DNA of 63,954 nucleotides, counting the filler, from Octopus bimaculoides (Eukaryota), in assembly GCF_001194135.2 (NCBI RefSeq). It is 7 parts of 6 records of this genome, joined end to end, with 100 filler letters (N's around TTAATTAATTAA, not from the genome) between each part and the next. Parts side by side here need not be neighbours in the genome. Positions count along the whole stretch, not along the records: positions 1 to 18,265 come from NC_068993.1; positions 18,366 to 30,807 come from NC_068987.1; positions 30,908 to 37,410 come from NC_068983.1; positions 37,511 to 49,038 come from NC_068982.1; positions 49,139 to 59,453 come from NC_068996.1; 2 more parts are not named here. One strand, given 5' to 3'. A model generated the notes under the pieces. That model saw only the letters and a list, made by a program, of their open reading frames with translations. It was not told the origin of the DNA and searched no databases. Below, one piece after another: positions 7,330 to 49,842 of this stretch. The position numbers were made by a program, and so were the translations under genes. Each line of letters opens with the position of its first letter. Position 1 is the stretch's first letter.

Positions 7330-7560
7330 TAGTAAAATCGATAAGAGCACAGTGAGGAAGCCGCGGGGAGTGGAAGATCCAGCTTTTCGAACCGAGTCCT
7401 TCTTCAGGGAAAAGTTGATAGGAGAGAGTTTTACATCCTATAAGTTAGAAACACTGGCTGAAACTGATAAGGAACGAAGGACCACGGGAACTACATACGA
7501 GTGTAGGAAGCGGTAGGAGAGAGAAACATGATGACAGAAGTACAAGTTCATCTTTCAGAC
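7330..7560 (-). mobile_element. Short HHR-bearing element inserted at a (GTAT)n microsatellite
   Basis: HHR motif at 7377-7411; terminus TAGTAAAATC abuts the microsatellite, as TAGTAAATC does at 49652. Confidence 0.55.
7377..7411 (-). ncRNA. Minimal type I hammerhead motif (helix III altered)
   Basis: UUCC-CUGAAGA-A-GGAC-UCG-GUUC-GAAA-AGCU-GGAU. Confidence 0.55.
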
Positions 7561-7744
7561 AACATTAAGTCTCTGTGTTTTTGTTTTTTTCAACATGGCA
7601 GGTGTAATTTGAATGTGACATCTGCTATGGCTCGAAAATCCTTCGCTGGCTTATTGGTGGTGATTTTGTTAGTAGTGGTGTTGATACCGCTGATAATTTG
7701 ATAATTGTAGCCGTGATTTTGGTTGTCACAGAGGAGCTGATATT

Positions 7745-7912
7745 GGCTCAAGGTCAGCAATTTATAGGGATTACATCAACCCCTGTGCTCAACTGGTACT
7801 TATTTTAGTGACCTCGAAAGGATGAAAAGCAAAGTTGACCTCGGCAAAATTCGCCCTCTGAAAGTGAAGACGGACAAAACACCGCTAAGCATTTCGCCCA
7901 GCGTGCTAACGA
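7745..7912 (-). mobile_element. SINE family B
   Basis: CAACTGGTACTTATTTTAGTGACCTCGAAAGGATGAAAAGCAAAGTTGACCTCGGC core. Confidence 0.8.
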
Positions 7913-7935
7913 TACATTAGTGATAATAGTAATAA

Positions 7936-8110
7936 GTCCAGAAATTTCGGGAAGAGGCTAAGTCAACTGGTATTTATTTTATCAATTCCGAAAGGATGAA
8001 AGGCAAAGTTGACCTTGGCAGAATTTGAACCCCAGAATGTAAGGATGGGCGAAAAGCCACCAAACACCTGTCTGGCCCGGCGTGCTAACGATTTTGCCAG
8101 CTCGCTACCT
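7936..8110 (-). mobile_element. SINE family B
   Basis: Same core; head GCCAGCTCGC on the plus strand. Confidence 0.8.
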
Positions 8111-8403
8111 TGTGAAAGTAGTTATTTTTATAGCGTTTACGGTGCTGTTGATGTTAGTGTTGTCTACAGAAGTGATTGTGGTAGAAGAAACGTTTTTTTT
8201 TTTGTTGAAACCGTTTCATGTTGTTAATAGTGTTTGCTGTCTGCAGTAATGGTATTGATAGTGTTAGCGGTGTTATTGTTTGAGGGATTGTTTCCTCTTG
8301 TTTGTAGTGATCTAGTCGGTGCTAATGGTGGTGGAGGTGAGATGAGAGTGTTAGAGGCCCCCTTCGGCCTGGTGTAGAAGTGATCTTGATATTAGTTATG
8401 GTT

Positions 8404-8596
8404 AAGACGGCGAGTTGGCAGACGGCTAGCACGCCTACTCGCATTTCACCCGTCTTTACCTTCTAGATTCAAATACTACCGAGGTCGCTTTTGTCTTTCA
8501 TCCTTTTGGTGTCGATAACATAAGTACCAGTTGAGTACTGGGTCAATATAATCGACTTACCGCACCTCCAGCTTGCTGGCCTTGTGCCAAAACTAG
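8404..8596 (+). mobile_element. SINE family B
   Basis: GGCGAGTTGGCAGA head, TTCAAAT B-box remnant, GTACCAGTTGAGTACTGGGTC core. Confidence 0.8.
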
Positions 8597-10459
8597 TTAC
8601 TAGCGGGACCCGTGAATATTTCTTGGAGTTAATGGAAAACTTCTTGGGTTATTTCTGAAAACTTTATCCAAAAATCCTGAAAGCGTAACCTGTGTTGTGT
8701 CTGTAGGGAAAGACAGTCGCTGATCTGTTAATCATTAAAAAGTGAAGGAAATTGGAATACGATGATTACTTAATTCACTTTATATATACACTTTATATAC
8801 TTTATGCACAATTTTATAAACTATACAACACTCTCCCTTTTTCTTTCTCATTCTTTGCTTTATCCTCTTTCTCTCTCTCCATTTTCTTTCACTCTCTGCC
8901 TTTACATTACAAACAAGCATTACAAACAAGCTAAGAAACGAAGAAAAAATAACTTAGTTAAAAATAAATTACACATTTCACTCATCGCTACCTCTCCCTC
9001 CCCTCTATCACCACCCTCCACTCTCCCCACCCCATCTTCCCCCTCCCTAGTCTCCTCCCTTCTCCTCTCCACTCCCCACCCAACTTCCCCATTCCTCCCC
9101 TCCCCTTCAACTAATCACGTGGAATCATTACGGACGGACTAAGGAACGGAGTGACAAGCAGAATTATTATAAGATGGTTATGTTGGTTGTAGTAGTGCTG
9201 GTTAGTGCGGCTGTGTTGATTGTGGGTATTGTGGTGGTGGTGTTGGAGTTAATAGTCTCCGGTTGTAGAAGTTATGGTGATGGTTATGTGCACCAGTGTG
9301 ATGGTAGTGGTGGTGATGATTGTGAGTTTTGTCGTTGTTGTTCTGGTACTGATGGTGTAAGCAGTGATGTTACCTATTGCTGTTTTGTTATTTGTGTAGG
9401 CAGTGGTAGTGATGGTTGTATAGGTTGTAGAATTGTATGAAGTGAATAGACCTTTTTGATGACTTACAACATGAAATAAATTGCTTAATACATTTACATC
9501 AGTTATACCCAAGATTCTTTACAAGACATTGAAACATCTTGTGATCGCTACAATGACAGTGGAGATATTTATAGTATTCCCAGTATTTTCTCGATTTTAA
9601 CCTAATATTCTTTCATCGTGTACATGACATCTAATTTTATCCCGGCTATTTTTTTCGCTCAGATATTTATTAGCTTCACTACTAGTTAAATGATTAAGGA
9701 ATAAAATGTTAGTGTCACAAAATGATGAGCTGATATTTGTTCTGACTATCTATACTCTGTGTTCAAATTTCACTGAAGTTGACTTTGCTTTTCATCCCTT
9801 CGCTTTCCATAAATAAAGTACTGGATCCATTTACTAACCTCCCTCTCCTCTCTCTCAGAATCAACAACGTTGACGGGCCCAAGACAGAAAGTTCACATCA
9901 GGGCGCCACTACCACTTTGTGGACTCAATAAGTAAAGAAAGACTTCAAAATAAGACTTCCCTATATTTCAGACTTTATATGATTTTTAAATCCTACCCCG
10001 TTTCGAGAATTTTAACTATTACAATAACTTATAAGTGGTGGACCACAATAATTAGAAAATCACGTTTGCATTCATTTCACTCAAATAGAAAACATTAGAA
10101 TGTAGCTAAAGTCAATTACATAGAAAAGAGAGAAAATGAAAATCTTTCTACCAGTTTGTTTCTAGGATTTTAATGTTTGATCAACATTTTTGTTTGAATT
10201 TTTTTAAATTTTTAATCCATTCAATTCATTAAAGAACAGTTCCTATTTGCAACTTGTTCTCCGTCAGGAATTCCCATCACAGTTACAATTAATTAATTAA
10301 TTACTAACTGATTACTGTTAAATTCTTCTTTTTTCTTTTCGTCTTATAATTAGTATTTTCTGTTGTTACACAGCTTTTATTTTGGTATTTGATACTGCAT
10401 AATTATCATTATCATCATCATCGTCGTCGTCGTCGTCGTCATCGTTGTTACAGTATAAA

Positions 10460-11050
10460 ATTAGTATTATTATTGTTGTTGTTGGTATGGTGGTGGTGTT
10501 AGCAACACGTTGATTCAAATCGCTTATAAGTTTTGTATTATCTTAATTGCCTTTTCAAAAATACATGTTCAAAACTTCTGCAGACCTTTTGCCATTTTCT
10601 CCATATGTTTCATATATTCTACTATTATTGGTGCTATCTAACTCATGGTTAGTGTTTCTGGGATTCGTGTGTAGGGACTGTTGTTAAAAGCCTTCCGGTA
10701 ATCACTCCATGCCATTGCTTTGAGCCATCTTATTCCGTCGGCAGACTTCAGTTATGGCTTTGTCGATCAATAACTGATCCTTATAACCATATGAACTTTT
10801 GCAACATCCCTTCTGCTCTTCTAGAAACAGGTTATCTTCTAGACGTCTATTCACTCTCTGCGATGTTATAGCTGTTAAGACTTTGTAATTTGTAGGGAGA
10901 CATGATATGGGATTGTAATTCTCTGAGTTTGTGGTAGATTCGGAGATTAAGGCGATTTTCCTTTCTGTGAGCCATTCGCACGTTGTCTCTACTTTCGTCA
11001 GCATCTCATAAAATTTTTCTGCCGGCAACATATGTGTTCCTGCTTAACAT
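10460..11050 (-). mobile_element. R4/Dong-like non-LTR retrotransposon RT fragment
   Basis: EWLTERKIALI..NYNPISCLPTNYKVLTAI..EEQKGC..GYKDQLLIDKAI, then RKAFN; resembles the RT of REL-endonuclease LINEs (inference). Confidence 0.65.
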
Positions 11051-11139
11051 TTTAACCAGAAGTCGGGTATCTTACCATATAACAATAAATAAATCAATAT
11101 TTTGTATTCTTATATTTTCCCTGCTATTCTAATACCCAC

Positions 11140-11700
11140 CACCTTTTAATGTTTTTTCCAATCCTTGATGTTATCGACCCAGTTCGTTTTCGGTCTTCCT
11201 CTCGAGCATTTACCATTCATCTTTCCTTGAAGAAATAGTCTTTATATACCTTGTGCTTTTACTATGTGACCAAAGTATTTTAGCTTTCTAATTAAGAGTA
11301 ACGATCTTCTTGTATTTGCTAGTTGTAATACTTCATTAGTTTTATGTTCTGTTCAAGATAGTCTTAACATTCTTCTAGATGTCCACAGTTCAAAAACTTT
11401 TTCGTTTGTCGGATAGTTTCCTTCAATGCCCATATTTCTGCACCATATCATAAACGTTACACATTACATTGACACACCCTTTATGTTGTTTCTATATGTA
11501 TACTCCTTGCTGTTGCAGCTTTTGACAGGCTTTTAAATATTTTCCTTGCGATTTCTATTTTTCGTCTAATTTCATCTTCACACCATTTTCTGATTGCATA
11601 AAACCAAGGTATACCATGTCTGATATTTGTCCTATTGTTGTTCCATTTATGGCTACACTGATGTTAGATGTTTATTTCTTGCTGACTGACACAGATTTCG

Positions 11701-11731
<31 letters not shown>

Positions 11732-13151: not shown

Positions 13152-13378
13152 AGTTTTAGTTAAACTATACACAAAACAATTTACGGTGACTCAGATTGTG
13201 TTAACGAAAGGTTTATTCAGTTAAATGCATAAGGCGACAGCCGCTAGTCAACTCCTGCTAGAATAGAAAGTCCGCTTAACCGGAAGTCGACTTCGCCGCA
13301 GACCAGCTCCCTAGCCAGCCCGCAGCGAAGTTCCTGTCTACAGTTTGTCTGTTATAAATCCTTGGGCATTTTCCTACA
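13152..13378 (-). repeat. 3' LTR
   Basis: Direct repeat of 15173-15363 plus an about 46-bp extra segment; starts TGT on the minus strand after the polypurine tract. Confidence 0.9.
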
Positions 13379-13481
13379 TATACCCCTGCCCCAGAACTGT
13401 TGGCTGTCATTGGAACCGGGAAGACGTTTTAACTGCCCTGCCCGTACGTGTGGCTACTCGGCTTTTGGTGACTGTTTCTTG

Positions 13482-15106
13482 TCAACGGTTGATGTAATTT
13501 CGTTGCGTGTCACGTCGAACGAATACGAAGTTAGCCGTGCGGAGGTCGTTTTGTACGGATGATCTGAGTGTACCGTGTGTTGACATGGGAATAGGGCGCA
13601 ACTGGCCCACACAGTCTCTCAGTTTCGCGAGATACCTTTTGACATCCGGGTCTGACGTCGTGTTCGGAAGGAACTTTCCTGGCACTGTAAGAGGAACACC
13701 ATACACCACAGCCCGAAAGGAGTGATCACAGCGGTTTTCGACACATCGACATCTTGTACTGGCATTTAGTGGTAACTTCGCATAAGGTCGACCTTCGGGG
13801 AAACCGAGCACTTGGCTAGCTGGGCTGAGAAGTCCTGTATGTGCGCAATGGGGTAGCGGTCGGGTGCGGTATCTGTGTTGAGATGGCGGTAATCTCTGCA
13901 AGGGCTAAAACCTCTGTTGGGTTTCAGTGCTACATTCAGGGGTGATGACCAGGGACTGCTTGATCGGCGAACTATGCCCAACGCCTCCATATTGTCAAAT
14001 TCGGCCTTTGCAGTAGCAAGTTTGTCTGGTGATAGACGATGTGTGCGGCTGTGCACTGGGAGACCGGTGGTGGGAATGTGGTGTGTCACTCCGTGGCGAG
14101 CTGTAGGTTTGGAGAATGTCGGAGTAGTGAGATTGGGGCGTTCGCAAGGAGATTCGAGAATTCATTCTCGGTCTGAGAGACAGTTGCTGAGCGGGAGGTG
14201 GGGCGGAATGTGCAGATGTTGCCAGAGATGCTGTTGATGAGTCGTCTCCCCTGCAAATCAGCCAGTAGTGAGTGTGCTTGAAGAAAGTCCGCCCTCATAA
14301 TGGGCTGATGGACATCGGCGATGGTGAATGCCCACGTGTATTTTTGTGAGCCGATGTTGAGTGAAAGGATGCGGCGACCGTACGCCTCGATTGTGGAGCG
14401 CTGGGATCTGCTGACTTCTGCTCTTGTGTCGATTAGGAACCTACGCCCGGAGCTCCGATCGTGGACATAGAGGAGCAATTAATCGTGGCCAGTTCTAGGC
14501 CGATGGTCAAGGGGCTCTGAAGCTACATGGTTGTTTGCACTTCGTAGCCTTTTTCCCGAACTTTATGTGGTAGAAACACAAGTTGTCTTATTTAACTCTA
14601 CCATGTCTCAGGGACAATCCTATGGCATTGACCATAACACCACTATATAAAAAATGTTTGTATGGCTGCTTTCGCTAACTGCCGCAGGTCCTTGATCCCG
14701 GTCTGAGTTATGAGGGCCTGGACCTGGTGTGGTAACTTGAGGAAGAATATTTCCCTAAACAAAAAGGAAGATGACTCACCAATGGGAACTAATGCCAACA
14801 TATTGTCCATTAACTCCTCCTCCGGTATCTTGGCTGCCGCTTCCCGTTCGCTCCGCTGGAATGTGTTCACCAGCCTGTCTTTTAACGTGGTGTATTTGTG
14901 CGTTACTGGGGGCTGGGTTAAAGTGTCCAGCACCCTCGCTGCCGTATCTTCATAGCAGTGCTGGTACTCCGTACGAATATTTCGTCAGGTCCGAAGTTAA
15001 TTTGTGTTCGTTGAATTGCGCTTCCACCCGCATGAACCATACATAGTTCAGTCTTCTTTGGCCAGAATTGTGGTAACTTCAGTCCTGTCTGTGATCGATT
15101 TGCCAT
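13482..15106 (-). pseudogene. Gypsy gag-pol remnants (gag, protease, RT N-terminus, integrase C-terminus)
   Basis: Track ORFs 14918-15106, 14643-14933, 14086-14478, 13766-14089 and 13482-13901 carry consecutive motifs in different frames. Confidence 0.88.
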
Positions 15107-15172
15107 GTTTCTTTTATTTTCTGTATACTTCGATGTGCAAAGCGAAAGCTGTTGTTCTTCTGTGGGGTCACC

Positions 15173-15363
15173 AGTTCAGTTAAGCTATACACAACAAAAT
15201 TAACAGAAGCCCAAATTGTGTTAACGAAAGATTTATTCAGTTAAATACATGAGGGCAACAGCCGCTAGTCAACTCCTGCTAGAATAGAAAGCCCGCTTAA
15301 CCGGAAGTCGACTTCGCCATTGTCTGTCATAAATCCTTGGGCAGTGTCTTACTCTCTGCAACA
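15173..15363 (-). repeat. 5' LTR
   Basis: Starts TGT on the minus strand and is followed by the PBS. Confidence 0.9.
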
Positions 15364-15490
15364 TTTATAAAGATTTATAAACTATTGCATTGTTCCAAAA
15401 GTATACTTCTGACTGATGATACTCAGAGTGACATTCTGTGAAGTTTTTGATCTGCAATAAAACTGCAGAAAACACATACATACACACACT

Positions 15491-15491
<1 letters not shown>

Positions 15492-15551: not shown

Positions 15552-15553
<2 letters not shown>

Positions 15554-16754
15554 GGATGGATGGACTGGTATTGCTCTGTGGAAAAGCTTTCTTCTCAAAT
15601 ACGATGTTCCAGGTTAGATCCTACTGCACCGCATTTTGGATGAGCGCTTTTACTGTAGTATTTATTGAACATGCCTGTGTCCTTTTGTGACCCGTAACCT
15701 AGCAACATGAAATCTATAAAATACCAAACGAAAATAAGTAATGAGGTGAATATGATTGAATATGATAAAGTTTACCCGATATGCCCACAGTTCATTGACT
15801 AAAGACAGTAAAAGAATTTATGTAGGTCGTTTCATGAGAAGCATGCCTAATTATTTTCCTATACATTCCGTCATATATTTATTTCTCCCAGATTTAACGA
15901 GGTCAGTAGGACAAAAATCCAGACTCACACAATTACGCTCATAGTTATACTGTGTGAAATCTACACACATATGCACTCCCTTACTTTTTCTGTCTCAAAC
16001 ACACCCATAAGAGTAAATCATTCATTCAAATGCACATCAATGACAGTTGTATAACACGCGCGCACGCTCATATACACTTATATATATATACATACACACA
16101 CACACATACTGCCGCTGTTTAATTTACGCCACCTTCTCCCTTTCTACCTCATACACACAGATACACAGACACACGCAAACACACACGCGTACACATACAC
16201 ACACACACACACACCAACGCACACACAAGTTAAAATAGTTTTTTCATTCATTTCATTTTTTCACACTACGTATAGGTATCAGAACGTGTACAAATTCACA
16301 TACACTAACACTATACACCTACGTGCCTTCAATATATAAACTAACCTCACGGTTTTAGGCACATGATCACCCACACGCGCGCGTACGTTTACAGATATGC
16401 GAATATGCACACATGTGTAGATTGTACGAGACAATAAGATTGTTTGTAGCTAAATCTATCAATAATTATAGCCGAGGAGGCATAAAACCCTAATAATTTT
16501 CGATTGCTAGTATATGGGTAGATTTGTGAAATAAGTTCAGTCCCCATTTATGGAGATATATCAGGTATTTGAGGATAGAAAACACCTCAGCACCTTGATT
16601 ATGTACACATGTTTATTATAGAATGCATACAAATCTCTCTTACACTTTCTTCCTCTCTGCATTCTCTTATTCTCTCTCTCCCCATCTCTCACTATATATA
16701 TGTACACACACACACACATACACACACGTATACACACACACACACACACACACA

Positions 16755-16886
16755 CGACTGACTTTCAGTTTCCCTGTATCAAATCCACTTAAAAGGTTTT
16801 GATCGGCACGAGGCTATAGTAGAGTACACTTGCCCAAGGTGCCACGAAGTGGAACCGAGCTGAAAACCATGTAGTTGGGAAGCAAG
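16755..16886 (-). mobile_element. SINE family A, 5' portion
   Basis: CTTTCAGTTTCC..AAATCCAC..GCCCAAGGTGCCACG..GTGGAACCGAGC matches the reverse complement of the family A head. Confidence 0.75.
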
Positions 16887-17313
16887 TTTTTTTAATTTTT
16901 TNNNNNNNNNNNNNNNNNNNNNNNNNNNNNNNNNNNNNNNNNNNNNNNNNNNNNNNNNNNNNNNNNNNNNNNNNNNNNNNNNNNNNNNNNNNNNNNNNNN
17001 NATGCAGGCATGGCGTGGATTCGATCCTCGATCGCCAAATTTCACTTAACATTTCAACAGCATTTTTCACACGGTAAAACAATAGTTTTTTTGTGAGTGA
17101 CAGCAGTTACATTTGCCATATGCCTTCGCTAAGCAGAATAATGTCTTTGCCACTTGACCCTTCTAACCTCTTCCAGGCCACCAAAAGTTAGAATAGAGAT
17201 AACAGACCTCCAACGAAATCTATTGTTCTCAACAATATGTCTATCCTTCTGGCTGGTTTTGGATAGTTATAAAAACAAGAACTCCGTAAGTCAAAGTCAG
17301 TTGGTGAGAATCG

Positions 17314-18115
17314 GTGGTAGATTCTCATGGAGTAGGGGAAACGGCACAGAGCATAGGAGAGCGGGCAAATGAACGTAGGAGGGAACTTAAGGAAGAGAAG
17401 AGCTCATCAGTTCTGTACCAGCACGCCAAGCAGGAACACGGGGGCTCACTCAACAACATAGAAGTTAAAATCTTGTCTACACATAGAACAGACGCAACGC
17501 TTAGACAAATTACAGAAGCTAGACACATAATAGAAGATAAACCTAACCTGAATAGGAAACTGGAATGGAACATTAGCACACAACCCTAACACACCACAAC
17601 ATATGACAGAATAAGATGCCCATAAACTGATAACAATATGAACAAAATATAATACAATACACAGATAAACAAATGGAATTAAATAACTATATACGTTAAC
17701 AAAATTAAATTAGATTAAATACAAAAAAGAAAGAATAAAAAATATAATAAGTAGGTATAAACACATGAACAAATAAAACGAACGTGTATAAACAGGGGAT
17801 ACAGATAATACAGGCACTCCCCATACAGAGACACGCACATACTAAACATAAACACACATAGTGAGATACGCATGCGCAAATAAAGACACATACGATAGGA
17901 ATACAAAATGGCTGATCGTTAGTAAGGAAAGACGCACAAATAAGAAAGAAGAAAGCAAAGGACCACTGATGAGGTCACAGAAGTGTGACGAAAGAACTCT
18001 GGCCGAAATACAATTAATGTAAAATAAAGCTGAAGCAAATTAACACCAAATATATAGTGCGCGTGTTTTTATTGGCTAAACTGGCAACATGACCATCCCC
18101 AAATACAACAATATA
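17314..18115 (+). mobile_element. 5'-truncated Penelope-like element: GIY-YIG C-terminus, 3' UTR/pLTR with HHR, ending at (TA)n
   Basis: GVGETAQSIGERANE..LYQHAKQEH..LRQITEARHI..PNLNRKLEW (17314-17589); HHR at 17960-18004. Confidence 0.8.
17960..18004 (+). ncRNA. Type I hammerhead ribozyme motif
   Basis: GGACCA-CUGAUGA-G-GUCACA-GAAG-UGUGAC-GAAA-GAAC-UC/UGGCC; perfect 6-bp helix II, core intact. Confidence 0.72.
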
Positions 18116-18265: not shown

Positions 18266-18365
18266 NNNNNNNNNNNNNNNNNNNNNNNNNNNNNNNNNNN
18301 NNNNNNNNNTTAATTAATTAANNNNNNNNNNNNNNNNNNNNNNNNNNNNNNNNNNNNNNNNNNNN
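18266..18365. other. Assembly gap placeholder N44-TTAATTAATTAA-N44 (also at 30808, 37411, 49039, 59454, 61860)
   Basis: Identical 100-bp layout six times; the 12-mer is a palindrome with stops in all six frames. Confidence 0.95.
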
Positions 18366-18394
18366 TATATATATACATACATATATACACAAGC

Positions 18395-18670
18395 ATACTT
18401 AGCGTAGTGATGATAACATTGTCGCAGAAATCATAAGCTAGCTTGTGTAGCTCCGAGCAGCAGATCAAAGGCTCGTGGAGCCTAGAGTATAGCACTTTAC
18501 TCCCAGCCGTCCATTTCACAGTTGGGATCCCTTCAATTCCTGCTGTCTTTCTACATTTCATTTGCTGTTGGCTTACGTTGTCTCTGCGAGGGAAAGGGCT
18601 TCGTCTAGATCTGACTTCAAGGTTTGTTGCGGGATACCAATCACGACTGAGTCTTCGACAGAATGTTTGT
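18395..18670 (-). mobile_element. RTE LINE fragment (RT N-terminal region)
   Basis: MKCRKTAGIEGIPTVKWTAGSKVLYSRLHEPLICC..DFCDNVII resembles the RTE K.GKA.G.DGIP motif. Confidence 0.65.
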
Positions 18671-19185
18671 ATGTGTGCACCTTTGTGTGCTTATAAGTAA
18701 TGGACTTACAGAGTCTACATGCAGGAAATTTATTTGTACGTTATTTGTTATTTCAAGGCTATTGCACCAAACACCTGCGGAAGATGATATACAGTGATGT
18801 CGAATGCAGATTGACGTTGTTGTGCAGCCAACCTTTTAGCAGTCCAGCAAATATTACTTTTAATGTCGGGTAGGTTTATGTAAAAAAATATCAGCTTCAA
18901 CAAATTAAGGATCTTTTAAATGGATCAAGACAACAAGATATCCAATATCTTCTTCCTCAGACTGTTAAAAATAGCAGTGATGTCGTCCTAACAGTCTATT
19001 TTGTCGTCTTTACTTGAGTCACATTAGATAATGTAATTCTAGATTATCTAATATATAACGTGGTCCCGAATGCAACACCTTAAGTTATGAATCTGCTCAA
19101 ATGGTAGACTTGGGTTCGACAATCAACCAACAAATCAAAAGTCGTACCGCAAAATTTTATTTCTAATTTCAACGTCTCAATACAA

Positions 19186-19345
19186 TATTGATTTCAAATC
19201 TGGGCTCAAGAACAGCAAGGAGCGGCTAAATCGATTACATCGACCCAAGTGCTTAACTAGTCCTTATTTCATCGACCCCGAAAGGATGAAGTTCAAAGCC
19301 GACCTCGGCAACATTTGAACTGAGGACGTAAAGACGGATGAAATT
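19186..19345 (-). mobile_element. SINE family B
   Basis: TCGACCCCGAAAGGATGAAG..GACCTCGGC..TTTGAACT core. Confidence 0.8.
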
Positions 19346-21571
19346 CCTCTTCCGTTTTATCTGATGTGCTAATAGTAACAGAATGCAAAATAGATGGGTG
19401 CAAAATACACTCATGTGTTTAGCTATGTCTATTTTTAATCTCTGGTCAAATGCTATTGATGTCAAGCCAGCAATTTGTCATTTTGAGACATTATATTAAC
19501 AGTGGAATACTTGGCTTTACTCCATCGACCATATCCACGCCCAGTTTATGAAATATTTTGCTTTATGTGGTTTATTCCACGGTCGATGGAATAACCCCAC
19601 CCCACCAAATAAATTATTACCATAAATCAATATTTATGGGACGAGAACCCGATGAGAGGCGGAAGTAGTGAAACACCAGAAATAATACTTAGTATAATTT
19701 ATTTGCTCCCGGTTCCGTTAATACTTTACCAAGATCGACAAGATTTTAAAACTATTCCCAAGATCGTTCAAGGTTTAGTTTAAGTACCTCAGTTGTGTTA
19801 ATTAATTTGAACACCTCTACAATAAATGTTAACAGTGTCATTGTAATCATTCAATATCTACAAGAGGAAATAATGATTGATGATAGAATGAGAAGTAAAC
19901 CTTGCGGAATTTTGTCACATCAATTTCCGATCTAATTGCAATTCCTGCTAACATCGACTTTGCCTTATAATATCCCACCGGGGTCGATACAATAAACATA
20001 ATTCAACTACTGGAATCAATAATATATCACAACTGAATTCTTCCTTAAATATTTCTCCCCAACCTTGTCGATGTAATTAAATCAATATTGATTTCAAATA
20101 TCATACATGTAGTGGCCTCACAATTAACAATCCTTTGGGTTTCAATTTCGATATACAGCAGCAAGGTAACATGACCACATGCCTTCTTTCATAGACTCAG
20201 GTTGATCAAAGCCATGTATGTGGAATTTGTAGAAAGAAAGGCTTGGTGGATTCGGTGTAAGTGACACTTTCAGTTCTAGATTCATAGACTTATTCTGTCG
20301 TCTGTTTTAACACTCAGCTTATCCCGAATCTAACTTTATCAGATCATACTATTTACAGAACTCGGATCAACTTTACACTCTGTTGATACATTACCGTCTT
20401 CTCCCTACCTATGTCCAACATCCTCTAAAAGGTTATGGGCTTTCATCTTGTTGTGACCAAAGCGAAGTAAATATATTGCTGAGGATTGATGCATTGTTTC
20501 TTTTCTTTTGCAGTATAGACAAATTGGATGTCAGACGATCCGAAAAGAGAAGCCATTAATAGAGGCCCAACATTAAACAAAGACCAGTTAAATGTCCCTC
20601 AGACCCCACGTGTACTTCCTGAAGAAGAGAAGAATACATTGGATAATGCATACCCAGGTATCCTAAAGAGACAAGACACTTCGACAGAACGACTTTCACT
20701 ATCTAACTGCTTAATCACAATTGACACGGGTTAAACAATGACAACAATAACATTTACGATCACAATTGAAACAAGAAGACTTGACACAGTCGAGCGTCAT
20801 ATTAAAAACAGCAACCAGTTCTCTCTTAAACTGTGGCTTATTGTCTTTAGACGTGGTTGTCAGTGCTATGCTTTCACATCAAACCATCTCGATCTGAGCT
20901 AAATTAGGACTAAACAGCCATAAGGATAAACTATAAGGAATGAACTAAGACCGATTCAACAACCACCACCAATATTTGGATAAAAATTCCTGGCCTTTTC
21001 CACAAGCCATCAATTGATATTTCTGTAAAAGGAACAAAATATCACGATTTGCAATTCCTCTTAAATGAAACGTTTTATGTTGACGGCAGCGAGCCAATAA
21101 TTTTTTTCAACCAAAATTTACATTTGATATATTTTTATTGATTTCAAATATAAATGCAAGGTTACACATTTCTAGGAAGTGTTGATCCGATGAAGTCGAC
21201 TTCAGTAACTGACTCGTACTTTATGTTATTAACCCAGTAAGAATGAAAAGTAAAACTGAATTTGTCAGACTTTTGAACTCAGTACATAAGAGTCGGAGAA
21301 GTACTGCAAGGCATTTGGTCCGATGGCTCTACGAATCTACATATCAACCAGCCTTATATGTGTAGTACTGTCCATTATTACGATTGTATTTTCTTTTCTT
21401 GTTAGTAAGAAAGTTTGTCTGACCAATGGTCCATATTTGTTATTCGTCACAACCAATTTTGTTATAACGGATTATGTTTGGCGTTGTTTCGGAAGAACTA
21501 CGGCTGGGATAAAAAAATTGGAAAAAAAAAAAAAAGAAGCATATTAACGATATTGAAAATTTTAGACATTT

Positions 21572-26166: not shown

Positions 26167-27666
26167 NNNNNNNNNNNNNNNNNNNNNNNNNNNNNNNNNN
26201 NNNNNNNNNNNNNNNNNNNNNNNNNNNNNNNNNNNNNNNNNNNNNNNNNNNNNNNNNNNNNNNNNNNNNNNNNNNNNNNNNNNNNNNNNNNNNNNNNNNN
26301 NNNNNNNNNNNNNNNNNNNNNNNNNNNNNNNNNNNNNNNNNNNNNNNNNNNNNNNNNNNNNNNNNNNNNNNNNNNNNNNNNNNNNNNNNNNNNNNNNNNN
26401 NNNNNNNNNNNNNNNNNNNNNNNNNNNNNNNNNNNNNNNNNNNNNNNNNNNNNNNNNNNNNNNNNNNNNNNNNNNNNNNNNNNNNNNNNNNNNNNNNNNN
26501 NNNNNNNNNNNNNNNNNNNNNNNNNNNNNNNNNNNNNNNNNNNNNNNNNNNNNNNNNNNNNNNNNNNNNNNNNNNNNNNNNNNNNNNNNNNNNNNNNNNN
26601 NNNNNNNNNNNNNNNNNNNNNNNNNNNNNNNNNNNNNNNNNNNNNNNNNNNNNNNNNNNNNNNNNNNNNNNNNNNNNNNNNNNNNNNNNNNNNNNNNNNN
26701 NNNNNNNNNNNNNNNNNNNNNNNNNNNNNNNNNNNNNNNNNNNNNNNNNNNNNNNNNNNNNNNNNNNNNNNNNNNNNNNNNNNNNNNNNNNNNNNNNNNN
26801 NNNNNNNNNNNNNNNNNNNNNNNNAAAAATAACTGAAGAATATAAAACAATAAAAAAACAATAATAAAATGGTAAAATGGAAGCAAACAAAACCAAATAT
26901 TGCAAACATTCAATATTGATAAATGAATAAAATGAAGAGAAATTACTCTAGTTATATAACTAATAGAGATGGTGTTGTGATTGGTGGTGGTGTTGTGATT
27001 GGTGGTGGTGGTGATGGTGGTGGTGTTTATGTTTAGGTTGGTGCCGCTGCTCTTGTCTATGATGGTAGTGGTGATGGTGATGTGAGTAGCACTGTTGTTG
27101 TTGTTGTCGTTGTTTGTGATGGTGGTGTTACTGGCGGTGATGATGGTGGTAGCGTGCTGTGTTGTTTGGAGAGGGTAACACTGCTGCTGTTGGTGCTTTT
27201 ATTGATGAGGATGCTGATGGCGTAGGTGTTACTTTTGGAAGGAGTAATGCGGTTATTGTGGTTGTTGGTTATAGTGGTGATGGCGTTGGTGGTTGTGGTG
27301 GTGGTGGTGGTGGTAATGGTGGTGGTGGTGATGTTGGTGGTGGTGATGGTGGTGGTTATGGTGGTGGAGGTGTTTGTGGTTGTGGTGGTTATGGTGGTGG
27401 TGATGAAGGGTGGTGTGCAACATTGATGTTGTGGATGTTGATGGCTGTTGGCTGTAGTGGTGATGGCGGTGGAAGTGTGGTGGTTGTGGTGGTGGTGATG
27501 GAGGGTGGTGTGCGGCATTGTTGTTGAGGATGTTCATGCTGATGGTTGTTGGTTATAGTGGTGATCGAGGCGGTGGTGGTGGTGGTGGTGGTGGTGGTAG
27601 TGAATGGTGGTGTGCGGCATTGTTGTTGTTGTTGATTTGATGGTGATAATATTAGTTTTCCGAATG

Positions 27667-27903
27667 AGGCGGCGAGTTGGCTGAAACTTTAGCACGCCGG
27701 GTAAAATGCTTAGCGGCATTTCGCCTGTTTTTAAGTTCCGAGTTCAAATAACGCCGAAGACGACTTTTTCTTTCATCCTTTCCGTGGTCGATGAAATAAC
27801 AACCAGTTGATTATTAGGCTCCATAAAATCGACTACACCCCGGGCCACCAAAAAGAAAAAAAATAATAATGAAATGGCCAGGCCCTGTGCCACTAATGGA
27901 AAC
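27667..27903 (+). mobile_element. SINE family B
   Basis: AGGCGGCGAGTTGGC..TTAGCACGCCGGGTAAAATGCTTAGCGGCATTTCG..GAGTTCAAAT. Confidence 0.85.
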
Positions 27904-31137: not shown

Positions 31138-31367
31138 GTGTGTGTGTACGTGTGAGCGAATGTTTGTTAGAACTACATTCTCCACATATTTTACTTTAAG
31201 AAGGTATGGTGCCCTTCCGGAAACATTTAACTGCTTTGACAAGCATAAAAAGCAATCCTTATTATGTTTAATGAAGTCATTGTACAGCGTGTTATGTCTC
31301 TTTTTGTATGCATATGTGCGTGATTGTGATGAGTGGCAGAGAGTGGGACAAAGAATATTGTAGAATG

Positions 31368-31568
31368 GCTTCAAATTTTGGCATAAGACCAGTAACTGCG
31401 GGGTAAACCGATTATATTGACACAACTATTCAACTGGTACTTATTTTATCGACCCCGAATGAATGAAAGAAAAAGTCGACGACCTTGGGTGGATTTGACT
31501 TAGGATGTGAAGACAGACGAAATGCCTCTTAGCATTTTTCTCGAAGTGCTAACGATTCTACCAGCTTT
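31368..31568 (-). mobile_element. SINE family B
   Basis: CAACTGGTACTTATTTTATCGACCCCGAA core; GTGCTAACGATTCTACCAGC head. Confidence 0.82.
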
Positions 31569-34910: not shown

Positions 34911-35669
34911 TTTCATATCTTAACTTAAACTTTCCAACATTTATAGGAAACGTTTTCACATTTTGATACAGTTATAAACACATCGATACTGTCTGCCTTG
35001 TTTTATATTAATACAATTATTGCCGGATACACATAATAGCTCAATACGTCCTAATGATACGGTAATTTGCACGCATGCCTTTGTACATTTCCGTACTTCC
35101 GCTTTATTTGACAGCTTTAACTCACGCGCTGTCTGCCTCTTCAAACTGTCAATTCTGCTTCACCGCTAATCATTGTTTAGCTTAATAACAGTCACCCGCA
35201 CATGCGTATATAGATGCACACGTTACTCCCACCCACACAAATACCTTAGCACGTTGTTTTCCACCATACAATCCACTCTCTTTTCAATGAAGTCTAATTT
35301 TCGCGCTGTTTTTATTTTATTTTGTCGCGTGCACTTGAACCTGACATCTGGCTTCTCACTCCTTCATCACACTTGATGTTTCTTCGACTTTTTTATCAGC
35401 TTCCTCATCACAATTATTTCTCAGTGGATTTTACCATTTTCTTTTACCACCACATAGATGGTCGACAAAACACTGCGTGTGTTTTATCATTGTTGTATCA
35501 TTTTTCTCCCCTTCACAAAAGTCATACACTTTTGCTGTTTCAATTATCACTTAATCCTTCACATTTAATTAAGAAGCGTTTTAACAATAACGCTTATTTT
35601 TCTTTCTTCTTCTACATTCATCAATAAATTATTCCCGCAAACGCATAAAGCGGTCACGCATCCTTACGC

Positions 35670-35900
35670 CTTTAGTAGAGCGAATCGATCCCAGGACTTA
35701 TTCTTTGTACGCCTAGTGCTTATTCTATCGATCTCTTTTGCAGAACCGCTAAGGTACGGGGACGTAAAGACACCAGCATCGATTGTCAAGCGATGTTGAG
35801 GGACAAAGACACACAAACACGTACACACATACACATCTATATATACTACAGGCTTCTTTCAGTTTCCGTCTACCAAATGCCTTGTAGAAGCTATAGTAGA
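35670..35900 (-). mobile_element. SINE family A, partial
   Basis: CCCAGGACTTATTCTTTGT..GAACCGCTAAG..CATCGATTGTCAAGCGATG. Confidence 0.8.
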
Positions 35901-38318: not shown

Positions 38319-38404
38319 TGATATATAAACTAGTAAACCAGGTCTTTATTATTGAATCTTTAAATTTTATACTGCAGAACAATTATTTCCTATTTAATGA
38401 CACT

Positions 38405-39560
38405 TACTATAGTCAAATATGCGGAATTGCGATGGGAACGAAATAATGGGTAATTTTGTATTCACCATATATGAAGTGTTACTGCAAAACTACGGTGACC
38501 CATTTCACCATTATACAAGAGAGAACTGTAAAAGATATCTGGACAAGTGCTTTTATCATTCGGCGGGAGACCATTGATAAAAAGTTTGGAACTGAAATCA
38601 ATACTAGATACTAGATACTTTAAACCCTAACATTTAATTCACAATGGAATATAGCAAAATAGAGCTTCCTTTATTGGGTATTATAATTTAAAAATTCAAC
38701 AACCAAATTATAAATGACATTTAGAATAAACCAACGGACTCGAAGCAAAATCTTCTGTTTAGCTCATGTCACGTGAAACACGCCAAAAGAAATATCCCTT
38801 TTAATTAAACAAAACGGATTTACACAATGGTGTCTGATAGAAATTCTCGGGACATTTTTCTTCAAGACATCAAAACAACATTAACTGAAGGTCAATATGT
38901 AACCTCCCTTATAGACGATGAAATTAAGCGTTCTAGAAATTTAGACATTAAAACACTAAATTTAACAAAACATAACACCACATCAAATCTCAAAACACTA
39001 CTGTATATATCAATTCACAACCCTAGAAACAATGAGGCATACAACACTGTTGTACAAAATCTACTCTTCTCACTAGAGGTCCAAAACTGAACAATATTCT
39101 GAAACATAGGTTCATCAAATGCAAAAAGCAACATAAATCGCTAAAAAGACTTCTAATAAATATGAAGCTTTACACAACAATCACGAAACCAGCTGTTAAA
39201 AATGTAGACGCCCAAACTGTGGAACATGCCCCACCTTCTGGAACGCTCGGAATTCCTATTCGAACAAGGAGAGAGGTTCACAATCAAAACCAACTTCACT
39301 TGTGCTTCCGAGAATCTAATTTACGTTATAACTTGCTCAGGTTGTGGTTATCACTATATAGGACAGACAAGTAGGATACTGAGGTGGAGAACAACACTAC
39401 ATAAGGAACGATTCCGGTTCCCGCAATACAGAAAGATTCCTTTGAGTCACCACATAGAATGTTGTGCAAATAATGTCCGACCTAAATTCACTGTTTCCCC
39501 ATTTAGCCGTGCAAAGAAGCAATTTCTATACAGGAACGTTTAAATAAAGAAAATGTTTCA
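38405..39560 (+). mobile_element. Penelope-like element (Neptune-like), decayed RT C-terminus + Cys-rich GIY-YIG
   Basis: CGIAMGTK; RYLDKCF; FTMEYS..LP; KPTDSKQNLLFSSCH; CRRPNCGTCP; TCASENLIYVITCSGCGYHYIGQT..H; clade assignment is inference. Confidence 0.82.
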
Positions 39561-40008
39561 TTGAACAATACAGGACACATCTAAATATGAACATATAACC
39601 AACTTTGATCTCAGAATATATTTTAATTCATGATCACATACACATCACTGTACATATTTCGTCTCATTATTTTAGCTCCTGGTTTTTCTGTATATTTATC
39701 CCCTACCCGAAAGATGAACAATTACCTCCACTGTCCCCTATAACGATCATCAATTACCTCCCCTTAGTGTCTTCTTGTTGTTGAAGAATTTGTTCATAAA
39801 CTTCTCCATACACAACATGAACTAAAATCTTCTAAAGAAAATACGAAATTACAATAATATCAATGTCATGATTAGCGGAAGAAACAATATAAAGTACATT
39901 AAAACTATGTAAAGCTTGTGCAGTTTCCTTCTTATATTTAATATACACATGTTTTGCATTACAACTCCCTTCGTGGGGTAATCGAAATTCCTCACTTTGT
40001 GTTATTGT

Positions 40009-40066
<58 letters not shown>

Positions 40067-42056
40067 GCACACACACTTATACACACACAATTATATATAT
40101 ATATATATATATATAAGTATGAAATAAAATTGAAAGAACCTCATGTTAAATGCATCAAAATAGTCCAATATACCTGTTTGTGTATTTATTGCTGAGAGTG
40201 TAGTTAGAAGCATCTTATCTTTCCGCTGGAAATCCGGTTTTCCTAAGCTGCTTTCTCATTAGTGATATTCTACACTTAATTCTGCAGTTTTGAACGTTTT
40301 TTTCTCATTCAATGAAAGCTAAATTCCCGATATCCATACCGTAATAATGTTGTTTGCAAGACTTTTTATTTACAGTCCATGTCTGTCGAAATTTTAAGTA
40401 CACATCGTCTCAAAAATATTTATGATTGTATAACCTATATCTGCTTAAAAATGTAACTATCACCGTTTTCTTTTTGGATGCTGAGTTTCCGAAGTCCATT
40501 AATTCATATGAAACTTTTGCTTCAAGTTATGTAATTTGAATAATTGAAGTCACGTTAATGAAATCCTTCGGAACCCAACGGCTTTCCTATTATTTCATTC
40601 AATATGTTAAACATGTCCTATTTGGTGCTAGATTTCAAAGTTTGCACTAATTGCTGTTGACGGGTTCCCATACAATCAAGTTATACATATGCTACTAAAT
40701 ATTGAATACACTATGATTTCCTGTCATAAGCGTAGCATTATGTAATAACATTTATACTTATTCATTTAATACTGCATTTGTATGCATAACTTAATATATT
40801 TATCCTCATTTCTCTAAGATAGAGGTAGAACAGTACACTCAGTTGTGAACACCGTTACACTTGCAATGAATTGTTCTGTAATAAGAAGCATCAGCGTTCA
40901 GTCAAATAGCCTGATTACACCGCAAAAGCCCACCCAAGCGGATAATCCACCAGACTTGGAGTCCTGAAAAGAGAGCTATGTTTTCCATATATTCAATTGT
41001 TGACTTAGCCCTGAATCATTTAACACGGTGTTTTGTTTGGATCCGAATATCCATAGTAAACGAGGATAAATCTACTGTTTTCATATCTACATTTAGAAAA
41101 ACTACATCGTTGGAGAACGCTCATGAGTGGTTCTCAACCAGGGTTCATATTGCCTAGTAGAGTCCATATGAGATTTTATTGTGAAACTCTATGCGCAATA
41201 AATTGGTTGTACTTCTTCAATACACAAAATATTTTAATGTTTATACAATTCCTTATAATATCTTATTATAAAAACACATTAAGATTTCTTTCATGCAGTG
41301 AACGAATATGGAGTTCCAAAAGCATAGAATAGGAATCAAAGGGATCCATAAGCAAAAATATCGTCGAAAATAAAACTGCTTGAAGTGTAGATTACTGCGT
41401 AGTCCACTGCATAGACTGAGCAAGCTCTCGCGTCATTTTTTCTCCTTACGATAATCGATATATAGATGTACCGTAGCTCCTTTTTTTATTCGTCTCCAAG
41501 CACTTTTGTGTGCACCTGATATTATCGTGTGTTATAAATCTTATATATACTGTATTCTGTATAAGTTGTACACAGAAAATAAATCCTCCAATCAAAAACA
41601 TATGTTTATATCAGATTCATGTTTATCGTGGGAAGTTATATGACATATTGACATGGAAGTTTGGCCTCGGGATATTTTACATTTCGTACGTGAATGTTAT
41701 ATTTTATATAATTTCTATCTAAATGAAGATAAATATTCTGATAATTTAGCGTGGGAAAAACGATTTTTTTACAAATTAAAGGAACATTTTTGCTCTCAAA
41801 AATTATACAACCCCCAGGAATTATTGATTTTAATATACTCTTATTCTACTCCTTTATTTAGCTTCACAGATAACAGAAATATTACATAAAATGAAGTGTT
41901 ATATTTTCACTCTTTGTCAATCCTTCGTATCGTAAGATTCTAGAGTAAGTTATATGTATAGTTATATTAGCCTTTAAACGATACACACATTCGCATACTC
42001 ACATACATGTATGCGCACACGTGTCTTGGTGTATATATATATATATATATATATAT

Positions 42057-42295
42057 AGGGAGAATTCACAAAAAAAACCCCAACAGACGAAGACAGGTGG
42101 TGTTGAAAACAAGTAGATGATTTATTATAACGCTCGGGAATTGAGAAAATCTTTAACGTTTCGAGCCTACGCCCTTCTACAGAAAGGAACACGGAAAGAA
42201 ACAAGGAGAGAAACAAGGAGAGAAAAATAGGAGAGAAAAAAGGAGAGAGAAAAAAGAGAGAAACAAGGAGTGAGAAAAAAGGAGAGAATGTATGT
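42057..42295 (-). mobile_element. Short HHR-bearing element between (TA)n tracts
   Basis: HHR at 42151-42186; downstream ATTCCCGAGCGT..AATAAA resembles the element at 49652. Confidence 0.6.
42151..42186 (-). ncRNA. Minimal type I hammerhead motif (A6 mutated)
   Basis: CUUU-CUGUAGA-A-GGGC-GUAG-GCUC-GAA-ACGU-U/AAAG. Confidence 0.62.
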
Positions 42296-42299
42296 ATAA

Positions 42300-42353
<54 letters not shown>

Positions 42354-42736: not shown

Positions 42737-42810
<74 letters not shown>

Positions 42811-42882
42811 GATGGAAAATACAATAAAAGATAGAAAGAGACCTCGATAGTATGTAAATAGAGGAATTTTGTTATATTATTT

Positions 42883-42932
<50 letters not shown>

Positions 42933-43151
42933 GCTTTTGTTTTTTATTCTTTTACATGTTTCAGTCCTAATGCTGTAGCTATACTGGAGCACCGCCTCAT
43001 CGCCTCTATATTTGGTCTTGTGTGTTGTGTGTGTGTGTGTGTGTGCGTGTGTGTGTGTGCGTGTGTGTGTGTGTGTAATAAAATTAAAAAAATTCCCAGA
43101 ATGTCGATAAAAGAACAACTGGAAAACTCTCCCTCATGAAGCAAAATGGTG

Positions 43152-43325
43152 TTTCCTCGTCAGTTATCGTTAGAAAATAACAATTTAATAGTTTTAACGA
43201 TAATATTGTTCATTTTGCTGGCGTCGATAACATAAAGCCACTGGGAACGATGAACCACCTAAATGAACAATATTATCGTTAAATGCGTGAAATTGTTGAT
43301 TTTTGGACGATAACTGACGAGGAAA
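43152..43325. mobile_element. MITE-like fold-back element
   Basis: TTTCCTCGTCAGTTATCGT / ACGATAACTGACGAGGAAA and TTAACGATAATATTGTTCATTT / AAATGAACAATATTATCGTTAA are exact inverted pairs. Confidence 0.8.
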
Positions 43326-43419
43326 GACTATGAACCAGTCATATGTATGAAATGTCCGTTTATTCCTTTGTCTTTCTGCGCAATTTATTAATCTTATTAT
43401 TTAAGTTAACCTGACGGAT

Positions 43420-46669: not shown

Positions 46670-46831
46670 CAAACAAACACCGACCCTAGTGCTCGACCGC
46701 TATTTATTTTATCGACCCCTAAAGGATGAAAGACAAAGTCGACCTCGGTGGCATTTGAACTCAGAACATTAAGCCGGAAGCAATACCGCTAAGCAAGAGG
46801 CATGGTAACGATTCCACATACTCGCCGCTTT
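46670..46831 (-). mobile_element. SINE family B
   Basis: TTTATCGACCCCTAAAGGATGAAAGACAAAGTCGACCTCGGTGGCATTTGAACTCAGAAC. Confidence 0.85.
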
Positions 46832-48998: not shown

Positions 48999-49038
<40 letters not shown>

Positions 49039-49138
49039 NNNNNNNNNNNNNNNNNNNNNNNNNNNNNNNNNNNNNNNNNNNNTTAATTAATTAANNNNNN
49101 NNNNNNNNNNNNNNNNNNNNNNNNNNNNNNNNNNNNNN

Positions 49139-49191
<53 letters not shown>

Positions 49192-49623
49192 ATACATACG
49201 TACGCATATGTGAGTTGTGTGTATGTGTGCTGTGTGTGCATGTGTGTGTATGCATGTGTGTATGTATGTTTTTCCTAAAACACTAACGATATAAATTGCA
49301 AAGTGTTTCTTTGTTTTTGTTTTTGTTTACCACAATTGCATCGGTTCAGTGCCGATCTGGCGCAAATCAATAAGAGCAAAAGACACAAAGTCTAAAATTG
49401 TATTACCTGTTTCTTGTTTGATTAAAATTAATGGGAATTTAAGAGGTAGAACGTATTGTAAATTTTTAAAATCTGTTTACATGACAGTCCATGGTCGTCC
49501 ATCAATGTTACTGAACTGTCAAGTGCAACGAAGTAGTACAGTAGCTGAACATGTAGACGAAATGTTTCGAATCTTGGTATCGAGTGTCAGCCATTTAAGT
49601 TAACGACAGTGGATGCAGAATAG

Positions 49624-49651
<28 letters not shown>

Positions 49652-49657
<6 letters not shown>

Positions 49658-49842
49658 AATCCCTAAAAAGAACAAATGCAAAAAACAACAACGCAAGGAC
49701 GTTGTACATGTAATGTATTAGCAGACGCCCAGGAATGGAAAGAAAGATAGTTTAATGTTTCGAGCAGACGCGCTTCTTCGGAAACAGAGGAAAGTCCAGT
49801 AGAAGGGGAGACGGTGGAAGAAAATTGCCAACGATTCACATG
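49652..49842 (-). mobile_element. Short HHR-bearing element at (TA)n, running into a gap
   Basis: HHR at 49750-49785; terminus TAGTAAATC. Confidence 0.6.
49750..49785 (-). ncRNA. Minimal type I hammerhead motif (U4 and helix III mutated)
   Basis: GUUU-CCGAAGA-A-GCGC-GUCU-GCUC-GAA-ACAU-U/AAAC. Confidence 0.58.

What the first reader, a model, noticed from the sequence alone, without database searches (positions are those of the whole stretch)
7377..49785. Family of short microsatellite-anchored HHR elements with helix covariation
Three dispersed minus-strand elements (7377, 42151, 49750) share X-CUGAAGA-A-helix II-GAAA-short helix III-U/X'. Helix I changes while staying paired (UCC:GGA, CUUU:AAAG, GUUU:AAAC), and helix II stays paired in two copies (GGAC:GUUC, GGGC:GCUC) with one mismatch in the third (GCGC:GCUC). 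All end directly at (TA)n or (GTAT)n tracts; two share the terminus TAGTAAA(A)TC, and two share ATTCC(C/T)G(A/G)GCGT downstream. Compensatory change suggests selection on RNA structure across subfamilies (inference). Each copy has at least one core or helix III lesion, so these individual copies are probably inactive.
Basis: partly seen in the sequence, partly recalled or inferred. Interest (0 to 1): 0.8.

Follow-up and report, generated by a model that had tools for sequence, protein, structure and literature searches.

The report
Retrotransposon hammerheads with an altered core
These are hammerhead-shaped RNA motifs lying just before microsatellites, likely the leftover ends of Penelope-type jumping genes (a known arrangement), but one very abundant family keeps U where hammerheads normally have A6, so it would be a natural test of whether such ribozymes must cut.

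Summary
The three motifs are real. They match the published minimal type I hammerheads of Penelope-like elements (PLEs): extra base after A9, G10.1-C11.1, two-base palindrome, short tail, (TA)n target. 40 of 58 RT+GIY-YIG relatives show that layout. They are not one family: E2 (42151) and E3 (49750) are homologous, E1 (7377) is not. No ORF is linked to E1-E3, so their PLE origin is inferred.

The new point comes from reads laid on E2. It belongs to a very abundant family in two organisms, and its supposed lesion A6U is the family state (core CUGUNGA; other letters under 8% in both DNA runs). N7 takes all four bases and position 17 takes U, A or C, the hammerhead rules. All 40 relatives and the published examples I read have A6. 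E2's helix II 'covariation' is a private change. Activity is untested. Verdict: known kind, new core variant.

The parts
7378..7410 (-). E1 minimal type I hammerhead: intact CUGAAGA core (C3 = 7407), extra A9.1, 4-bp helix II with 3-nt loop, helix I UCC/GGA. No U16.1-H17 step in the expected register (a G follows the U), so likely a damaged copy
   Evidence: relatives L051 and L065 have the same AGCU palindrome followed by U-H
7331..7377 (-). E1 3' tail (47 nt) ending at (ATGT)n/(CA)n 7206-7330
7411..7768 (-). E1 upstream sequence up to a dispersed repeat at 7769-7913; possible 3' UTR or ORF end, not shown
   Evidence: repeat boundary; endonuclease C-terminal profiles give no significant hit
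42151..42186 (-). E2 minimal type I hammerhead with U6 core (C3 = 42182, U6 = 42179, N7 = 42178, H17 = 42155; predicted cut between 42155 and 42154), intact ACGU palindrome, helix I CUUU/AAAG
   Evidence: family variation
42058..42290 (-). Whole E2 insertion (233 nt): pyrimidine-rich 5' part with slipped 12-25 nt units, hammerhead, 93-nt tail; (TA)n on both sides (42032-42057, 42291-42321); likely 5'-truncated
   Evidence: other copies continue upstream with different sequence and end at TATATAT (loose ends)
49750..49785 (-). E3 minimal type I hammerhead, homologous to E2: core CCGAAGA (U4C), C10.2-U11.2 mismatch, palindrome broken by G16.2A
49655..49842 (-). Visible part of the E3 insertion: 95-nt tail to (TA)15; 5' side lost in the N gap 49843-50399, which reopens in (TA)n
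17960..18004 (+).
17308..17589 (+). C-terminal GIY-YIG endonuclease remnant of a PLE, same strand, stop 377 nt before E4's core
   Evidence: profile of relatives' endonuclease ends, domain E 4.4e-8 among 36 test frames; third-best score window-wide

Best explanation
E1-E4 are minimal type I hammerhead motifs lying 47-106 nt before microsatellites, likely the 3' pseudo-LTR ends of 5'-truncated Penelope-like retrotransposons, and the E2 family carries U instead of A at core position 6 while likely still being selected as a slow, dimer- or protein-assisted ribozyme. Inferred steps: the element's GIY-YIG endonuclease nicks AT-rich microsatellite DNA; its reverse transcriptase copies the RNA from near the 3' end and usually stops early, leaving short tail-plus-hammerhead stubs inside (TA)n. 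In full or tandem elements two hammerheads would pair through the ACGU palindrome to complete helix III and cut after H17, trimming the precursor RNA. Solo stubs like these have no partner and are probably silent. Shown: motifs, tails, microsatellite ends, E4's link to an endonuclease remnant, E2 family abundance and its pattern of variation. Not shown: an ORF for E1-E3, and any cleavage.
For: Form matches the published PLE min-HHR criteria: extra base between 9 and 10.1, G10.1-C11.1, palindromic 15.2-16.2, mostly solitary copies from truncated PLEs (PMC4209133). (TA)n targeting and 5' truncation are described PLE traits (PMC8557442). Of 80 metagenome loci with RT+GIY-YIG relatives, 58 had at least 150 nt after a usable ORF end; 40 of 58 carry a sense hammerhead (antisense control 4 of 58), and 28 of 40 have a short microsatellite run within 260 nt after it. 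L041, L044, L054, L075 and L080 have the E2/E3 form (extra A9.1, GAAA-NN-U-H). E4 sits behind a GIY-YIG end. Two more PLE wrecks lie in the window. E2 lies between two (TA)n tracts; 7053 and 5566 contigs in two organisms and 2445 and 1763 RNA reads were laid; depth peaks over the hammerhead (X8: 3.97M against 0.19M in the tail). In the DNA runs the listed polymorphic sites inside the 36-nt motif are only N7, H17 and one loop base (chance about 0.02 and 0.003). All changes at + strand A are accounted for by other rows, so U6 has no alternative at 8% or more. A separate subfamily's loose-end consensus also reads U6.
Against: No RT or endonuclease remnant upstream of E1, E2 or E3, and none of the 80 loci matches them in DNA, so the link to an ORF is by analogy. 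E2's core fails the CUGANGA consensus; position 6 is A in 40 of 40 relatives, and changes at position 6 lower activity (A6C). RNA reads show no pile-up of starts or ends at the predicted cut and equal strands, though only about 6% of each run was read and an active PLE hammerhead also showed no such ends (PMC11167929). 14 variant rows were not shown; one G>C (X8) and one G>A (X18) change are unplaced and could lie in the motif. 18 of 58 relatives showed no hammerhead within 1300 nt, two of the 40 hits (L002, L010) are weak, and short (TA)3 runs are common by chance in AT-rich tails.
Confidence: 0.72

Rival explanations
1. E2/E3 are a non-autonomous short family (SINE-like or monomeric retrozyme-like) derived from a PLE pseudo-LTR and moved in trans by PLE proteins; there is no ORF to find upstream.
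For: No ORF linked to E1-E3. Very high abundance of a short conserved stretch. Animal retrozymes are argued to derive from PLE pLTRs and include solo monomers (bioRxiv 10.64898/2026.07.22.740005, part 1 of 5).
Against: No tandem hammerhead units in the window. The hammerheads are the minimal PLE form. Other copies run on upstream of E2's 5' part (loose ends behind 42213). E4 shows the same layout with an ORF end attached.
Confidence: 0.17
2. The U6 motif no longer cuts; the hammerhead-like fold is kept only as a binding or folding signal for the element's protein, or for RNA dimer formation. This can hold together with a PLE origin.
For: Position 6 changes impair cleavage in Mg2+. Cleavage is not needed for PLE target-primed reverse transcription in vitro. 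Naiad PLEs thrive without canonical hammerheads. No end pile-up in RNA reads.
Against: Absence of G at position 17 with free U/A/C, and fixed G8, G12 and A15.1-U16.1, are what cleavage chemistry predicts (established hammerhead rules, recalled).
Confidence: 0.3
3. The family is a burst from one master copy whose hammerhead was already dead (A6U), carried along neutrally.
For: A6U is expected to be damaging; hitchhiking of a dead motif in a successful element is simple.
Against: N7 shows four letters (about 7-40% each in X8, 14-53% in X18) and H17 three, while neighbours stay under 8%; the core is better kept than its flanks. One master cannot give that.
Confidence: 0.06
4. Chance motifs in repeat-rich DNA.
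For: Loose descriptor not significant; no Rfam hit; no folding z-score signal.
Against: Strict descriptor 4 against 0.045; E2-E3 homology; family-wide pattern. E1 alone was not tested with reads.
Confidence: 0.02

Closest known systems
Minimal hammerheads (min-HHR) of metazoan Penelope-like elements (Cervera and De la Pena 2014, PMC4209133; read: main text parts 1-2 of 4, supplement parts 1-2 of 3)
   Same: Type I, 3-4 bp helix I, extra base after A9, G10.1-C11.1, CG or GC palindrome at 15.2-16.2, solitary dispersed copies. The Acropora Neptune example has a 4-bp helix II with a tetraloop and GAAA-CG-U-C, nearly E2's form.
   Different: The E2 family has U6; every row I read in Fig. S3 has A6, as its descriptor required. 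The only core variant named there is U3-A8.
Neptune-type EN+ PLEs targeting (TA)n (Craig et al. 2021, PMC8557442; read: 12 passages and supplement searches)
   Same: Hammerhead near the 3' end, heavy 5' truncation, microsatellite insertion bias; an RT + zinc-finger + GIY-YIG wreck lies in this window (38330-39540).
   Different: No ORF is attached to E1-E3; their clade is not determined.
Poseidon PAc of Anolis (Frangieh et al. 2024, PMC11167929; read: passages)
   Same: pLTR hammerhead; AT-rich targets; no RNA-seq ends at the cut site.
   Different: Its cleavage was shown to be protein-assisted; nothing is tested here.
Natural hammerhead core variants A6C, A6a insertion and U4C (Perreault 2011, PMC3088659, section 8 and passages; PMC7151607, passages)
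   Same: Change at position 6 (E2) or 4 (E3) in an otherwise complete hammerhead; A6C cleaves weakly in Mg2+ and better in Mn2+.
   Different: Those are rare single phage or viroid cases; here U6 is fixed across an abundant animal repeat family.
Non-LTR retrozymes (PMC7229834, search listing only; bioRxiv 2026.07.22.740005, part 1 of 5)
   Same: Type I hammerhead, non-coding, probable PLE origin.
   Different: Defined by tandem units and circular RNA; none seen here.

Membership tests
PLE minimal hammerhead | Type I topology with helix I, helix II and GAAA | tested here: met
   (E1-E4)
PLE minimal hammerhead | CUGANGA core | tested here: not met
   Met by E1 and E4. Not met by E2 (U6, fixed in the family) or E3 (C4; family state untested; C4 also occurs in relative L042)
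PLE minimal hammerhead | Extra nucleotide between 9 and 10.1, and G10.1-C11.1 pair | tested here: met
   all four motifs; no listed variant at these sites in the E2 DNA runs
PLE minimal hammerhead | Palindromic 15.1-16.1 followed by H17 | tested here: inconclusive
   Met in E2 and its family (H17 = U/A/C); broken in the E3 copy, out of register in E1, non-palindromic loop in E4
PLE minimal hammerhead | Self-cleavage as a dimer | not testable with these tools
   needs an in vitro assay; RNA reads showed no end pile-up
Penelope-like element (EN+) | RT + C-terminal GIY-YIG ORF upstream on the same strand | tested here: inconclusive
   Endonuclease end found for E4 only; none for E1-E3, as expected for short truncations; no genome held
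Penelope-like element (EN+) | Insertion bias for microsatellites with a short tail after the hammerhead | tested here: met
   4 of 4 motifs end at a repeat; other E2 copies end at TATATAT; 28 of 40 relatives
Penelope-like element (EN+) | Tandem or inverted pseudo-LTR arrangement | tested here: not met
   E1-E4 are solitary; solitary 3' ends are the common state in PMC4209133, so this does not exclude origin from a PLE
Non-LTR retrozyme | Head-to-tail tandem units each with a hammerhead | tested here: not met
   (window only)
Non-LTR retrozyme | Circular RNA with a junction at the cut site | tested here: inconclusive
   no such joint listed in two RNA runs, but only 159 nt and about 6% of each run were examined

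The most novel reading that the evidence does not exclude
An abundant animal retroelement family, shared by at least two organisms, runs on a hammerhead whose supposedly invariant A6 is U, and it still cleaves (as a dimer, with the element's protein, or with a changed metal preference). A sister family may likewise fix U4C. CUGANGA-based descriptors would miss all such ribozymes, and PLEs scored as lacking hammerheads may hide them.
Probability: 0.4. Interest if true: 0.65.

Novelty: new variant of a known kind. Interest (0 to 1): 0.45.

Why it matters
Hammerheads at PLE ends beside microsatellites are known. What they do is open: cleavage is weak in vitro and not needed for target-primed reverse transcription in the one reconstituted system. 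A family that fixed A6U while keeping every other hammerhead rule is a natural experiment. If it cuts, the natural core is wider than current search descriptors allow. If it does not, the fold is being kept for something other than catalysis. Either result bears on why PLEs carry ribozymes.

Tried and rejected
A pattern shared by E2 and E3 found 0 matches in metagenome, prokaryote-genome and viral collections; P0001 found no viral relative. Rfam: only microsatellite-driven miRNA-type hits, no hammerhead. Folding z-scores uninformative; computed homodimer minima did not give the hammerhead dimer. Endonuclease profiles upstream of E1, E2 and E3: no hit (E1 best 3.4 bits, rank about 30 of 2047). 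Homologue search with E4's ORF end: none of 153 candidates passed. MAFFT misaligned the 21 locus hammerheads and the three copies, so no covariance model or pair count was made; covariation among three copies of two families cannot be tested statistically. No RNA holder was listed for the E1 stretch. Earlier scan findings: nothing. Literature: searches for A6U, for CUGUNGA-type strings, and for hammerhead with octopus or cephalopod listed no report of a U6 family, judged from listings and the passages read. Lunse et al. 2017 (about small PLE hammerhead variants) is not held and may bear on novelty. E2 motifs were absent from the supplements of PMC8557442 and PMC13282606 as held; long cells are cut there and no repeat library was seen. 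An alternative register that gives E2 an A6 was rejected: it leaves a 2-bp helix II, breaks G10.1-C11.1 and makes U4 the free position.
Full report
Setting. The window is microsatellite-rich DNA with N gaps, full of retroelement wrecks and apparently animal. The group is not established: a resemblance to cephalopod repeats is recalled and was not tested. No genome was held.

Observation. All three motifs exist on the minus strand, with C3 at 7407 (E1), 42182 (E2) and 49781 (E3). Each has an extra A after A9, a helix II closed by G10.1-C11.1, GAAA, four more bases and a 3-4 bp helix I. They end 47, 93 and 95 nt later at microsatellites. Only E1 has CUGAAGA; E2 has U6 and E3 has C4. My scan found a fourth motif, E4, at 17966 (+), with a perfect core. 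A strict descriptor, whose extra features match the published min-HHR description, gives 4 against a mean of 0.045 in 200 shuffles (maximum 1). A loose one gives 5 against 3.2, not significant. Rfam finds no hammerhead, and folding energies are unremarkable, as expected for motifs with almost no helix III. E2 and E3 are homologous (73% over 81 nt, E 5e-6); E1 matches neither.

Context in the window. E4 lies 377 nt behind the stop of a GIY-YIG C-terminal remnant on the same strand (domain E 4.4e-8) and 106 nt before (TA)7. A broken RT + GIY-YIG ORF lies at 38330-39540 (+); its endonuclease part is 70% identical to P0001, which has RVT_1 and GIY-YIG matches just under Pfam's cut-offs. A third PLE-like wreck lies at about 1400-3530 (-), with inverted terminal repeats. 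E2 is a 233-nt insert with (TA)n on both sides. E3 runs into a gap that reopens in (TA)n. No coding remnant was found upstream of E1, E2 or E3.

Relatives. P0001 has 26,900 relatives at E <= 0.001. An alignment of 34 proteins fetched the best 80 of 536 metagenome loci. I scored the 63 with a usable ORF end and dropped 5 that had under 150 nt downstream. Of the remaining 58, 40 have a sense type I hammerhead, against 4 of 58 on the opposite strand, and 28 of the 40 have a short microsatellite run within 260 nt after it (two hits are weak, and (TA)3 arises by chance). Five (L041, L044, L054, L075, L080) have the E2/E3 form. None matches E1-E3 in DNA. This shows that the layout is the PLE layout; it does not show that E1-E3 own an ORF.

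The E2 family. I laid four runs on 42058-42216 at 80% likeness: two RNA runs of organism A (2445 and 1763 reads, about 6% of each run), and DNA contigs of organism A (7053) and organism B (5566). Summed depth is no copy number, but the contig counts show a large family. Depth peaks over the hammerhead and falls about twentyfold in the tail, and many contigs leave the alignment just outside it, so diverged subfamilies share the motif. Inside the 36-nt motif the DNA runs list variation only at N7 (all four letters), H17 (U, A and C; G under 8%) and one loop base, plus 42173, where 97-99% differ from this copy. The chance that the polymorphic sites fall only on the six free positions is about 0.02 (X8) and 0.003 (X18). 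Position 6 has no row. One G>C (X8) and one G>A (X18) are unplaced and might fall in the motif. Clipped A6 relatives could hide in at most about 16% of X8's depth, and X18 shows no such drop. The loose-end consensus of a subfamily with a shorter loop (336 and 232 reads) also reads U6. Other loose ends show copies ending at TATATAT and continuing upstream of E2's 5' part. RNA reads come equally from both strands, with no pile-up of ends.

How it most likely works. Inferred from PLE biology: the endonuclease nicks AT-rich repeats, reverse transcription starts near the RNA 3' end and often aborts, and stubs of tail plus hammerhead are left in microsatellites. In tandem precursors two minimal hammerheads would share helix III through the palindrome and cut after H17. 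Solo stubs lack a partner, and E1 and E3 are also damaged at helix III. For the E2 family, the pattern 'free at 7, H at 17, fixed elsewhere' is what selection for cleavage predicts, so I favour a slow, assisted ribozyme over a purely structural signal. A6C lowers activity in Mg2+ but not in Mn2+, and the Anolis PLE hammerhead cleaves only with its protein. The same paper shows that cleavage is dispensable in vitro, which keeps the structural rival alive (0.3).

Comparison and novelty. The kind is known: PLE min-HHRs (PMC4209133) and (TA)n targeting (PMC8557442). E1 and E4 have the consensus core. E2 fails the CUGANGA test, so it works like, and likely derives from, that family but is a core variant. 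Retrozyme membership fails on tandem units in this window. I found no report of a U6 family in searches or in the passages read; all Fig. S3 rows I read have A6. Lunse et al. 2017 could not be read, so novelty is not secured.

Verdict. Observation partly confirmed; PLE 3' ends likely (0.72); new variant of a known kind; interest 0.45.

Noticed in passing
window 38330-40011 (+): Broken PLE with RT, zinc-finger linker and GIY-YIG (70% to P0001), a 3' UTR of about 450 nt, ending at (CA)n(TA)n; no intact hammerhead found, only a decayed candidate near 39900-39990.
   Followed up: partly
window 598-3935 (-): PLE-like wreck with RT (2460-3532) and C-terminal GIY-YIG (1398-1685), framed by an inverted 280-nt repeat (598-878 / 3655-3935, 88.6%) holding a half-core motif (GAAA plus a CG palindrome) and ending at (TA)n. 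It looks Hydra-clade-like (label recalled, not tested).
   Followed up: partly
loose ends behind 42171; variants at 42163 and 42167: One internally deleted E2-family copy with C11.1 changed gives 191 and 260 RNA reads of near-identical sequence but under 1% of DNA depth: likely a single well-transcribed locus.
   Followed up: no
L033, L034, L035, L029, L032: PLE relatives whose hammerheads use the U3-A8 covariant core; several others (L001, L027, L031, L045, L078) have almost no helix II.
   Followed up: no
window 13155-15318: LTR-retrotransposon-like remnant on the minus strand (protease- and RT-like frames by eye) between two 143-nt direct repeats, 88% alike.
   Followed up: no
window 6319-6520, 7769-7913, 7963-8111, 8441-8592, 19193-19372, 27664-27834, 31364-31568, 46677-46831, 50786-50997, 57391-57534; and 188-581, 16704-16892, 35668-35878, 56578-56731, 58299-58726: Two dispersed SINE-like repeat families, 70-82% alike between copies.
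   Followed up: no
window 4240-4620, 10702-11043, 18310-18690 (-): LINE-like RT fragments (by eye; weak RVT_1 match for 10702-11043).
   Followed up: no
window 18310-18321, 49083-49094 and four more paired gaps: A 12-nt AT palindrome between two 44-nt N runs, seen at two sites; the same gap pattern recurs six times: probably an assembly spacer, not biology.
   Followed up: no
window 62973-63059, 51235-51294, 43146-43331: Near-perfect inverted repeats (90%, 93% and 75% self-complementary).
   Followed up: no
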